A program made the position numbers. Below, one piece after another: positions 39,001 to 42,000 of a stretch of DNA of 64,000 nt. This DNA comes from an uncultured Methanosarcinales archaeon (GTDB taxonomy: Archaea > Nanobdellota > Nanobdellia > Woesearchaeales > GW2011-AR9): contig CAZCGN010000002.1 in assembly GCA_964498285.1 (NCBI GenBank), forward strand, positions 68,923 to 132,922. The letters run 5' to 3'. Within the stretch, counting starts at the first letter, position 1. Each line of letters begins with the position of its first letter.

Positions 39001-42000
39001 AGCTAAAATAAGAAGCTGTTTATATAGTTATCCGTTCTATTTCCGACCAACACACTTATCATACAAGCCTAAGAACGCCCCATTTGGATCATACTTCTTT
39101 TTCAAAATATCATATGTCCTCTTATTATACAACTCCCAGAACTCATCTTGAGAATAAAAGGAAGTAGAATATAGGGATTTCTTACCAGACAATTCTCGCA
39201 CCTTTTTTTCAATCAGTCTGTTGTAATAGCCATCCTCTTTAGTTGTTGGTACAACGTCCCAAAATCCAAAATTAATATACAATGTGTCTTTATCCATTGG
39301 GTAGAGGGGAAAATTAACTTCTTTATTGTAAAATTTCGTAGGGCACACCCACACTGGTTTAATCTTAATTGTATCAAAAAAGAAATCGACAAATTTGTGC
39401 GCTACATCAACGGGAACTTCAATATCTTGTACAATCGATTCCTTTCTCTTGCTAAATTTGGAAAGAATAGGATGTTTGTGATTCCATTGCCTAATTTTTT
39501 GATATACTTTAGAATTCAGTCTTTTCTTACCAAATAATCTTCTTATAAACTTTCTTTGCACACCAAAGTGTTTTGAACACCAGAACCAATCAGTATCCCA
39601 TCGCCAAATGTAATCGAGAATGGTGAGAAAATCAGTTTTCTTTTCTTGAATTGATTTGTAATAAATATTCATGTGTGTGTAATCAGATACCTTATTCGGT
39701 ACCGAATCGACAAATTCACCAAGCGTTATGTACATCTCAGATGTACTAAAAATAGTGCCATCAACAAAATCTACTTTTGTATCCAAGCAATGTCTTTTAA
39801 TGTCTTCAAAATATTTTTCAGCTTCAGTGTACTGCAAATGAGTAAGCCGAACATATTTCTTGACTGGAATCAACTTAATTCTCACACGTAGTGCATATCC
39901 TAAGGTTCCGTAGGAGTTTGGAAAGCCAAAAAATAGATCTTTATGCTCATTGGTAGGAGTGCATGTAAGAATTCTACCATCTCCAAGTATGATTTCACTT
40001 TCAAGAACAGTTTCATGCACTAATCCATATTTGAATGAAGATGATTCAATTCCAACACCAGTAAGCGCGCCACCAACAGTGATTGATTTTAATTCTGGTA
40101 CAACCGTTGGCATTAAATTATGTTTCAAACACTCAGCAACAACTGTCTCGTAGGGAGTCATTCCTTCTACATCAGCAGTTTTATTCTTAGTATCAATCGA
40201 AATAACGTTGTTAAAATGTCGAACATTAATCTTGTTTGTCTTACCTTGTTTTCTATGGCGAAACAAGTTTGAAGTAGATTTACCTAATGCAATAGTTCCT
40301 TCTTCTTTTTGCGCTTTAAGAAGTTCATCTTTAAGAGCTTGTTTCTTTTTCTCAAACTCTTCTGTGGTAATCATAGAAATCACCGAATAGATTCATACCC
40401 GCCGGGAATTCCATCCTTAGAGAACACAAATTGCCATAATTGAATTCTTCGGGATCTAAACGCACCAGCGCAGGCAAGTAAGTAGTACGTCCACATACGA
40501 AAGAACCTCTCACCATACTGTTCTTTAAATTGATCCCAATTCTCAGTAAAATTCTTGTACCATGCCATAAGGGTCATATCATAGTATGGACCGAAGTTAT
40601 GAAAATCCTCCGTTACAAACAACCCTTCAGAAGCACCAGAGAGTTGATGAAGCGAAGGTAACATTGAATTTGGAAAGATATATTTATGAATCCATGGATC
40701 AGTTACCTTAACAGACTTATCTTTTCCAATAGTATGTAAGAAAAAGATTCCGCTATCTTTCAGACAATTGTGAGCAGTTTTCATAAGAGTCTTATAATTT
40801 TTATATCCAACATGTTCACACAGACCGATTGAAACAACCTTATCAAACTCACCTTTTGCCTCTCTATAGTCAGCAAGAACAATTTTTACAGGCAAATCTT
40901 TACACCTCTCACGCGCAAACTTTACTTGTTCTTCTGAAATGTTGTATGCTGTAACGCTACATCCATAATGTTCTGCTGCAAACTTTGCAAATCCACCCCA
41001 GCCGCAACCTAGTTCAAGTACCTTATCGCCTTTCTTGATTCCTGCCTTTTTACAGATAAGATGTAACTTTTGTTCTTGCGCAGTATCTAAATCTTTTGTG
41101 TCTTTGTAATACGCGCAAGTGTATTGCATATTTTTATCAAGCATCGCTGAATAGAATTTATTTCCTAAATCATAATGTTCCTTGGCAACCTTTTTAGATC
41201 CTTTTTTGTTTTGCACATTAAGCAGTTTTGCTTTTACAAGGTTTTTGATGAGTCCTGCTGAAAGAATCTTTCGATCAAGTTTTGCGCTCATTATCTTTGT
41301 AAAAAACTGATCAAGGTGCTTACAATCCCACCATCCATCCATGTAGGCTTCACCAAGTGCTAACGAGCCACCTGAAAGAACACGTTTGTAGAGATCTTCG
41401 TTATGAACTTGGATATCCCAATCATGTTCTCCATTGATTGTAATACCAGCAAGATCAAGAATCTTTTGTACCTCGCATTTCATACTATTTGCCATGAAAG
41501 AGAAAGGGCAAATCCCTTCTTTTTAAAGATTTGTATATATTTATCTAGGAAGTTTGGTCTCTCCAACATAATCATATCCTTTGATATAATCCTCTGGAGG
41601 AGGAATCACAGATAAGAGTTCAGCTGCACGCGCTGCTCTTGGAGCTTTATCTTCACCCCGCACATAGCCAAGAAGTGCATTTCGTACGTAGTGGTATGCC
41701 ATTGCGCCTGGACTTCTAAGAACATCACTTGTTTTTCCAAAAACTCTTTCTTCTAGTGTAATAAATCTTGCATTAAGCGGTCTTAGACCAAACACAAGAT
41801 CTTCATCTGGCATGCCGTTTGCTACTAATTCTGTCCAATCAACTAAAAGCCCGTACAACTTTGCCTTGTCACTACTCATAAGACAATAAAAACAAGAATT
41901 CTTTAAAAATTATACTAAAAAAAGTAAAAGTCTACTCTTCGGTCTTTTCTTCTTTCTTCTCAGTAATCCCAACAACTTTGATTTTGAAAGTAAGTTTTTT

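What a model noticed while it worked through the whole genome (the two positions that open the first line are those of the whole stretch)
39037..41495. BfaAB-type methyl-branching of fatty-acyl lipids in an archaeon
A Cfa-type methyltransferase (52% to E. coli Cfa) is followed 5 bp later by a DHCR24-like FAD oxidoreductase in a genome with no archaeal or bacterial lipid synthesis. The pair is a BfaAB-like methylase/reductase that turns unsaturated acyl chains of host-derived bacterial phospholipids into mid-chain methyl lipids. New: an archaeal membrane remodelled from ester lipids with a tuberculostearic-type product.
Evidence so far: Call 14 (domains, identity); pair adjacent in 11 of 822 order genomes and 6,156 genomes overall; closest named reductase homologues from Nanoarchaeota and Patescibacteria; no GGGP synthase, HMG-CoA reductase, CarS, CdsA, PlsX/Y, polyprenyl synthase rows.
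(Added by a program. Inside this text positions count along the whole contig: contig position 68,923 is position 1 of the stretch shown here. "Call 12" and the like, gene names such as g00115 and contig names such as C1 are that model's own, and its searches are not shown. The text may have been shortened before it was handed on; [...] marks where a part breaks off. The agent that wrote the report below was given it as the finding of a first reader that could run no searches.)

Follow-up and report, generated by a model that had tools for sequence, protein, structure and literature searches.

The report
Archaeal lipid methyl-branching gene pair
A tiny marine archaeon with no detected genes for building a lipid backbone carries an intact bacterial-type two-gene unit, a methyltransferase and a flavin reductase, that likely turns double bonds in scavenged fatty-acid lipids into methyl branches, which would mean it uses bacterial-type membrane lipids.

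Summary
The pair is real, intact and on an archaeal contig. The reductase (39037-40374) is an orthologue of actinobacterial BfaA (50% identity). The methylase (40380-41495) is not BfaB (30%). It lies in the E. coli-Cfa group, as does Desulfobacter TmpB, a reported 10-methylene former (54.6% to TmpB, 51.9% to E. coli Cfa). So the unit is a hybrid, TmpB-like methylase then BfaA reductase, not bfaAB. In 401 same-order genomes, 11 of 12 methylases with this enzyme's Cys beside the catalytic Glu sit next to a BfaA- or TmpA-type reductase; 0 of 16 with E. coli's Phe do. Trees favour this split, but an AU test does not reject the alternative (p 0.083). Eleven lipid-synthesis families were not found in the 96%-complete genome; SAM synthetase is present. 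Best reading (0.55): methyl-branching of scavenged ester phospholipids. Product, branch position and host are untested. No species with a measured methyl lipid was shown to carry this exact pair. Cfa in Woesearchaeota and the host-lipid idea are in print. This scan already noted the pair in another DPANN genome and two CPR genomes. New variant; interest 0.55.

The parts
40380..41495 (-). SAM-dependent acyl-chain methyltransferase, E. coli-Cfa/TmpB group, 371 aa; E227/H254/Y305 match E. coli E239/H266/Y317; Cys226 replaces E. coli Phe238
   Evidence: AlphaFold model pLDDT 94, best fold match E. coli Cfa 6bqc TM 0.88
39037..40374 (-). BfaA-orthologous FAD oxidoreductase, 445 aa from ATG 40374 (448 aa from GTG 40383)
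   Evidence: 50% over 427 aa to Actinomadura BfaA-type proteins; motifs match T. curvata BfaA by eye; model pLDDT 91, fold of the cytokinin-oxidase/DprE1 flavoprotein family
40372..40383 (-). Junction: TGA stop overlapped by an in-frame GTG (GTGA), with an ATG 5 bp after the stop; translational coupling inferred
   Evidence: Sequence
41503..41527 (-). TTTAAAAA box 24 nt before the methylase ATG (possible archaeal TATA box, inferred) followed by a 6-pair hairpin
   Evidence: Sequence; hairpin, where 3 such sites were found against 1.5 expected, so not above chance
38212..38913 (-). rpl11, archaeal-type; context gene that anchors the pair to an archaeal contig, not part of the module

Best explanation
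The two genes encode a Cfa/TmpB-type methyltransferase and a BfaA-type flavin reductase that likely act in sequence on unsaturated fatty-acyl chains of phospholipids that the archaeon would take intact from other cells. Shown: both genes are intact, adjacent and archaeal in context; the methylase keeps the catalytic residues; a SAM synthetase is present; no lipid backbone pathway was detected. Inferred step 1: the methylase adds a SAM methyl to a cis double bond and releases an exo-methylene instead of closing a cyclopropane ring, as TmpB and BfaB do. Inferred step 2: the FAD enzyme reduces the methylene with NADPH to a saturated mid-chain methyl branch, as T. curvata BfaA does. Inferred step 3: neither protein has a membrane-spanning segment and both need cytoplasmic cofactors, so they would work on the cell's own membrane. 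No acyltransferase was found, so the substrate would arrive as whole ester phospholipid from a host, most likely bacterial. The effect would be a saturated, oxidation-resistant, somewhat more ordered membrane. The cassette was probably acquired sideways and is shared with Patescibacteria.
For: Reductase orthology. A Cfa-family methylase lies in 69 of 80 genome loci fetched with the reductase. The validated TmpB falls in the same sequence group and passes the same Cfa HMM. The Phe/non-Phe contrast was noted from validated enzymes first (note) and then held in genomes: in the order, Cys is paired in 11 of 12 and Phe in 0 of 16 (46 copies examined); in Patescibacteria, Cys 3 of 3 and Phe 0 of 10 (23 loci). 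Five same-order methylases of this type sit next to an unrelated TmpA-type reductase (45-48% to D. postgatei-like TmpA), so one methylase group pairs with both known methylene reductases. G559 and G493 carry the paired methylase and separate Phe-type copies; L004 has both types around one reductase, which suggests different jobs. Trees group the window enzyme with paired methylases and TmpB, apart from E. coli Cfa (SH-aLRT 91-92). MetK is present. Lipid synthesis was not found (11 families). DPANN symbionts take host lipids (abstract of 10.1101/2023.12.06.570485).
Against: No biochemistry on this pair. The identity margin over E. coli Cfa is small (54.6 vs 51.9%). The tree branch is short and unstarred. 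The longer constrained search did not reject placing the enzyme with the Phe group (p-AU 0.083), and TmpB's own position is unresolved (p 0.57). Kin are not independent, so the Fisher p values overstate. The Phe contrast is my own observation, not a tested determinant; only two validated cyclopropane synthases were seen aligned. Desulfobacter TmpB was assayed in Top10 E. coli by GC; the NMR proof was for T. curvata BfaB. Nitrospira with the same architecture (N. japonica, strain KM1) have no lipid data that I could find, and no protein named N. moscoviensis, the known 11-methyl-16:0 maker, turned up. The pair is rare: 0 of 24 same-family genomes. Host and NADPH supply are unknown.
Confidence: 0.55

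Rival explanations
1. The methylase is an ordinary cyclopropane synthase. The reductase either opens the ring or reduces methylene lipids scavenged from others. The cell still handles ester lipids, but the first product is a cyclopropane.
For: Passes the Cfa equivalog at 572 bits; best fold match is E. coli Cfa; AU test does not reject placement with the Phe group.
Against: TmpB passes the same HMM. Phe-type enzymes are paired in 0 of 16 (order) and 0 of 10 (Patescibacteria) cases, while Cys-type enzymes pair with two unrelated reductases. BfaA's shown substrate is the exo-methylene (PMC7791843).
Confidence: 0.17
2. Same methylate-and-reduce chemistry, but on another substrate: unsaturated isoprenoid chains or polyprenol from an archaeal host, or acyl groups on surface glycans, not membrane fatty-acyl phospholipids.
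For: UniRef names a Nitrospira homologue 'Delta(24)-sterol reductase', and TmpA is geranylgeranyl-reductase-like, both isoprenoid-type chemistry. The genome has an MBOAT glycan-acylation cluster. All DPANN hosts cultured so far are archaea (abstract listing of PMC11291902).
Against: The same enzymes occur in Nitrospira, Acidobacteria, Desulfobacter and Patescibacteria, bacteria with fatty-acyl membranes (recalled). The whole Cfa fold, including the N-terminal part, is kept (TM 0.88). All tested members act on straight monounsaturated acyl chains.
Confidence: 0.12
3. A transferred passenger cassette that has no substrate in this cell and is not used.
For: Patchy: reductase in 0 of 40 relatives and 15 of 401 order genomes; different neighbours in each genome; nearest relatives are Patescibacteria.
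Against: Intact frames and catalytic residues; host-like codon usage; 36-39% divergence from the nearest full-length genome-locus relatives without loss; kept as a pair in 8 order families; Cfa-type genes in 39 of 401 order genomes.
Confidence: 0.1
4. The pair comes from a bacterial contig joined or binned in by error.
For: Both genes are bacterial-type.
Against: 124 bp from archaeal-type rpl11. One contig spans 33000-44967 without a difference at flat depth (that run may be the source). The same pair sits among archaeal genes in other genomes.
Confidence: 0.02

Closest known systems
BfaA/BfaB (TmsA/TmsB) of actinomycetes: T. curvata, M. chlorophenolicum, M. smegmatis (PMC7791843, PMC5660069, PMC10127668)
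   Same: BfaA-orthologous FAD reductase (50% to Actinomadura copies) next to a Cfa-family methylase; overlapping or nearly touching genes.
   Different: The methylase is not BfaB-type (30%); order is methylase then reductase; the host makes no fatty acids and is an archaeon.
TmpB/TmpA of Desulfobacter and Desulfobacula (PMC7791843)
   Same: Methylase 54.6% to D. postgatei TmpB, non-Phe at the position before the catalytic Glu; same gene order. True TmpB+TmpA-type pairs occur in 5 same-order genomes.
   Different: The partner is BfaA-type, not the geranylgeranyl-reductase-like TmpA; only weak 21-25% TmpA hits elsewhere in this genome.
[quoted passage not shown]
   Same: 51.9% identity, same fold, same catalytic residues, passes the HMM cut-off.
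   Different: Cys for Phe238; coupled to a reductase; groups with paired methylases in trees.
Uncharacterised methylase-reductase pair of Nitrospiraceae, Acidobacteriota and Patescibacteria
   Same: Same architecture and motif; methylase 57-61% identical in full-length Nitrospiraceae copies; adjacent in 23 of 25 Nitrospiraceae reductase loci.
   Different: Nitrospira and Acidobacteria make their own lipids (recalled). No product has been tied to these genes in the papers I found.

Membership tests
bfaAB operon | BfaA-type FAD reductase | tested here: met
   50% over 427 aa to Actinomadura copies, which match T. curvata BfaA by eye. T. curvata itself was not fetched (0 of 151 genomes).
bfaAB operon | BfaB-type (actinobacterial) methylase | tested here: not met
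   30.3% identity; BfaB-type proteins form a distant clade with support 100.
bfaAB operon | Gene order reductase then methylase | tested here: not met
   All 23 actinobacterial loci with both genes have the reductase first; here the methylase is first.
bfaAB operon | Makes 10-methyl acids via a 10-methylene intermediate with NADPH | not testable with these tools
   Needs expression and lipid analysis.
tmpBA operon | TmpB-type methylase | tested here: inconclusive
   54.6% to D. postgatei TmpB vs 51.9% to E. coli Cfa; trees group them but AU tests do not settle it.
tmpBA operon | Adjacent TmpA (geranylgeranyl-reductase-like) reductase | tested here: not met
   The neighbour is BfaA-type; TmpA gives only two weak distant hits in G000.
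tmpBA operon | Gene order methylase then reductase | tested here: met
Cfa cyclopropane synthase (PRK11705) | HMM score above the curated cut-off | tested here: met
   572 vs 400; not discriminating, since TmpB scores 591.
Cfa cyclopropane synthase (PRK11705) | Bicarbonate-site residues Glu/His/Tyr (E. coli numbers 239/266/317, recalled) | tested here: met
   E227, H254, Y305; shared with BfaB and TmpB.
Cfa cyclopropane synthase (PRK11705) | Phe before the Glu (GMFEH), as in E. coli and L. acidophilus enzymes; my own marker, not an established criterion | tested here: not met
   GLCEH here.
Cfa cyclopropane synthase (PRK11705) | Forms a cyclopropane ring | not testable with these tools
   Needs an assay.
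DHCR24 sterol reductase | Orthology to eukaryotic delta-24 sterol reductase | not tested
   No DHCR24 sequence or structure appeared; only a UniRef label on a homologue.

The most novel reading that the evidence does not exclude
A sizeable part of this DPANN order are archaea whose membranes are built largely from bacterial ester phospholipids taken from bacterial hosts and then tailored with a borrowed toolkit: cyclopropane synthases in some, methyl-branching pairs with either BfaA- or TmpA-type reductases in others, swapped with Patescibacteria. That would put an archaeal cell on the bacterial side of the lipid divide, make these genes markers of a bacterial host, and make DPANN and CPR cells unrecognised sources of mid-chain methyl fatty-acid biomarkers.
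Probability: 0.35. Interest if true: 0.85.

Novelty: new variant of a known kind. Interest (0 to 1): 0.55.

Why it matters
No bacterial host of a DPANN archaeon has been cultured, and what their membranes are made of is open. An enzyme pair whose tested relatives act only on cis-unsaturated fatty-acyl phospholipids, in a cell with no detected way to make them, is indirect evidence for bacterial-type lipids in an archaeal membrane. The chemistry can be tested in a week in E. coli. The work also gives a candidate one-residue and gene-neighbour rule for telling methylene-forming from cyclopropane-forming enzymes that databases name alike, and a third natural methylase-reductase combination for making branched fatty acids.

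Tried and rejected
Fetching T. curvata bfaAB by a short degenerate pattern found 0 of 151 family genomes, so Actinomadura loci stood in. Linking the pair to Nitrospira 11-methyl-16:0: the lipid is reported for N. moscoviensis, bockiana and calida and not N. defluvii (passages of PMC5516240 and PMC3660363; the table's columns are ambiguous in plain text). The reductase is in 72 of 371 Nitrospiraceae genomes, but the only cultured names returned were N. japonica, sp. KM1 and sp. Nam80, and I found no lipid data for N. japonica (the other two were not searched by name). TmpA-type genes were found in 0 of 116 Nitrospiraceae. The link stays at genus level and is not counted as proof. A search for 10-methyl acids in Solibacter returned 0 papers. 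The careful mixture-model tree did not finish and the bootstrap run did not converge. A quick AU test rejected the Phe-group placement (p 0.005), but its constrained trees were poorly optimised; the longer search, itself cut at 125 s, did not reject (p 0.083). I use the second. For the 51-row trees I dropped long-branch and near-duplicate rows from the 139, and the motif column was removed. Expression: no RNA holder was listed. In the pieces shown, contigs of other runs did not bridge rpl11 and the pair. Sigma-70 promoter and terminator scans were at chance level. Fold search of the reductase gave only distant flavoproteins (TM about 0.65). DprE1 was rejected (46.9 bits vs cut-off 500). DGGGP synthase was rejected for the UbiA protein (34 bits vs 353). 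No complex prediction was run, as no binding is claimed. Supplement 3 of PMC7791843 was seen in 2 of 3 parts with long lines cut and highlighting lost; bioRxiv supplements were not available.

Full report
Observation. The window has two same-strand ORFs at the stated place: a 371-aa methyltransferase (41495..40380) and a 445-aa flavoprotein (40374..39037; a GTG at 40383 overlaps the stop). The first hits Pfam CMAS and NCBIfam PRK11705 Cfa at 572 bits. The second hits FAD_binding_4 and no curated family above cut-off. The next gene, 124 bp on, is an archaeal-type rpl11, and a proteasome-chaperone family gene is near. Codon usage of both genes is typical of the genome. One contig covers the region without a difference at flat depth, though that run may be the source. 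Four seawater runs of a second study hold over half of the sampled words. The genome is 1.35 Mb and 96.3% complete.

The reductase. Blitzblau et al. 2021 (PMC7791843; I read the abstract, 3 of 8 parts of the text, part of the Results, the Discussion, supplement 1 and 2 of 3 parts of supplement 3) define BfaB as the methylase that makes a 10-methylene and BfaA as the NADPH reductase. By eye the window reductase shares BfaA's motifs along its length. By alignment it is 50% identical over 427 residues to Actinomadura proteins that closely match T. curvata BfaA by eye. T. curvata itself was not retrieved. Of 80 genome loci fetched with the reductase, 69 hold a Cfa-family methylase. Its nearest relatives in a quick tree are from Patescibacteria (61% best; support 88).

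The methylase. It is 30% identical to actinobacterial BfaB-type proteins, 51.9% to E. coli Cfa, 54.6% to Desulfobacter TmpB and 59% to the N. japonica homologue. The TmpB came from a metagenome locus; it differs from the paper's D. postgatei sequence at 5 of 373 residues by eye and is listed under that species. The paper reports 31.5% conversion to 10-methylenepalmitate for that operon. This TmpB passes the Cfa HMM at 591 bits, so 'closest to true Cfa' cannot decide the product. The predicted fold matches E. coli Cfa best (TM 0.88), and the bicarbonate-site residues are kept (numbering recalled).

A marker and a natural experiment. In the paper's alignments the residue before the catalytic Glu is Phe in E. 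coli Cfa but Thr, Leu or Met in BfaB and TmpB; here it is Cys. I noted this before looking at genomes. In 401 sampled order genomes, 39 have a Cfa-type gene and 15 a BfaA-type gene. Of 46 methylase copies, 10 are next to a BfaA-type reductase and 5 next to an unrelated TmpA-type reductase. Cys copies are paired in 11 of 12 cases (the twelfth is cut by a contig start), Phe copies in 0 of 16; 4 copies had no readable motif. In 301 Patescibacteria genomes, 23 have the methylase and 5 are paired (Cys three times, Ala, Met); 0 of 10 Phe copies are paired (flanks of 1.5 kb, some loci cut by contig ends). One exception outside these sets, L004, has a Phe-type gene after the reductase but also a Cys-type gene before it. 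Kin are not independent, so I give no weight to the p values. Trees put the window enzyme with the paired methylases and TmpB, apart from E. coli Cfa and the stand-alone copies (SH-aLRT 91-92, short branch; same split without the motif column). Against this, the AU test with a longer constrained search did not reject the alternative (p 0.083), and TmpB's place is unresolved (p 0.57). The tree is therefore supporting, not decisive.

Nitrospira. The same architecture is in 23 of 25 Nitrospiraceae reductase loci, and the reductase in 72 of 371 genomes, including proteins named N. japonica and strain KM1. Some Nitrospira make 11-methyl-16:0 (passages of PMC5516240 and PMC3660363). I could not show that those species carry the pair. 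This is a lead only.

The lipid inventory. Eleven families were not found in G000, with control genomes positive in each search: GGGP synthase, PlsC, CarS, HMG-CoA reductase, ketoacyl synthase, polyprenyl synthase, CdsA, PlsY, desaturase, DXR and cis-prenyltransferase. Four other pair-bearing genomes also lack GGGP synthase, CarS, HMG-CoA reductase, ketoacyl synthase, CdsA and PlsY. One of the four has a PlsC-family hit and two have a polyprenyl synthase. G000 does have three CDP-alcohol phosphotransferases in glycan clusters and a UbiA-family protein nearest to decaprenyl-phosphate phosphoribosyltransferase. A bacterial-type SAM synthetase is present. PlsX and NADPH supply were not tested. 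A 96% complete genome can miss genes.

Mechanism. Shown: genes, residues, neighbours, absences. Inferred: SAM methylation of a cis double bond to an exo-methylene, NADPH/FAD reduction to a mid-chain methyl, acting on intact phospholipids taken from a host and placed in the cell's own membrane. Neither protein has a hydrophobic segment long enough to span a membrane. In M. smegmatis the matching product is linked to membrane order and stress recovery (passages of PMC10127668). I put about 0.7 on the chemistry and 0.55 on the whole. Rivals: cyclopropane product 0.17, other substrate 0.12, unused passenger 0.10, misassembly 0.02. Chain length and branch position depend on the host lipid, so 'tuberculostearic' is not justified.

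Known versus new. It works like bfaAB and tmpBA but is a member of neither: BfaA reductase, TmpB-like methylase, tmp gene order. Cfa genes in Woesearchaeota MAGs are reported (passage of PMC10936187). Modification of bacterial host lipids by Woesearchaeia is proposed (passages of PMC11868695). Possible bacterial hosts are discussed in PMC8204110 (passages). Lipid uptake from an archaeal host is shown for a nanohaloarchaeon (abstract only). I saw no paper on a BfaA- or TmpA-coupled methylase in archaea in the listings of searches; this library lacks most subscription papers. The scan itself noted the same pair before, in another DPANN genome and in two CPR genomes. Those notes are not independent support.

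Verdict. Real feature, new variant of a known pathway in an unexpected host. It sharpens an idea already in print and makes its chemistry directly testable. Interest 0.55; the bold reading (bacterial-lipid membranes in these archaea) 0.35 likely, 0.85 if true.

Noticed in passing
L152, L154, L155, L160, L162 (same-order genomes G567, G585, G521, G582, G630): TmpB-like methylase next to a TmpA-type (geranylgeranyl-reductase-like) gene, 45-48% to D. postgatei-like TmpA: a tmpBA-like unit in archaea.
   Followed up: partly
L163-L186, e.g. L173 (G575, same family), L165 and L180 (tandem copies): Stand-alone E. coli-type Cfa genes with the Phe motif, 16 copies among 401 order genomes; G559 and G493 have tandem duplicates plus the paired type.
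   Followed up: partly
L128-L131 and L132: Divergent BfaA-like reductases (31-34%; L132 42%) with no methylase nearby, in five order genomes; substrate unexplained.
   Followed up: no
L053:4537-7284: A 915-aa ORF joining methylase and reductase in a betaproteobacterial MAG; the junction looks out of frame, so it may be a sequencing frameshift, not a true fusion.
   Followed up: partly
L006, L008, L013 and about 25 similar loci: A third methylase type (motif G.LEHAG, about 33% to the window enzyme) upstream of BfaA-type reductases, mostly in Betaproteobacteria; another uncharacterised variant.
   Followed up: no
L004:1-3138: Saccharibacteria contig with a Cys-type methylase (74% to the window enzyme over a fragment), the reductase and a Phe-type Cfa in a row; nearest relative of both window genes.
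   Followed up: partly
G000:C1:226000-290000 (L147-L149, L221): Large surface-glycan region with PEP mutase and a phosphonate transporter, MBOAT, three CDP-alcohol phosphotransferases and a DPPR-synthase-like UbiA protein, although no polyprenol synthase was found, so the carrier lipid may be scavenged too.
   Followed up: partly
window 38212-38913: rpl11 carries a charged C-terminal extension of about 70 residues beyond the L11 model.
   Followed up: no
window 45924-46979: Queuosine salvage family protein (PF10343).
   Followed up: no
window 42908-43552, 37813-38169, 41541-41879, 42423-42854: Short ORFs without Pfam match around the pair; 42908-43552 has a lipoprotein-like N-terminus and is very acidic.
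   Followed up: no
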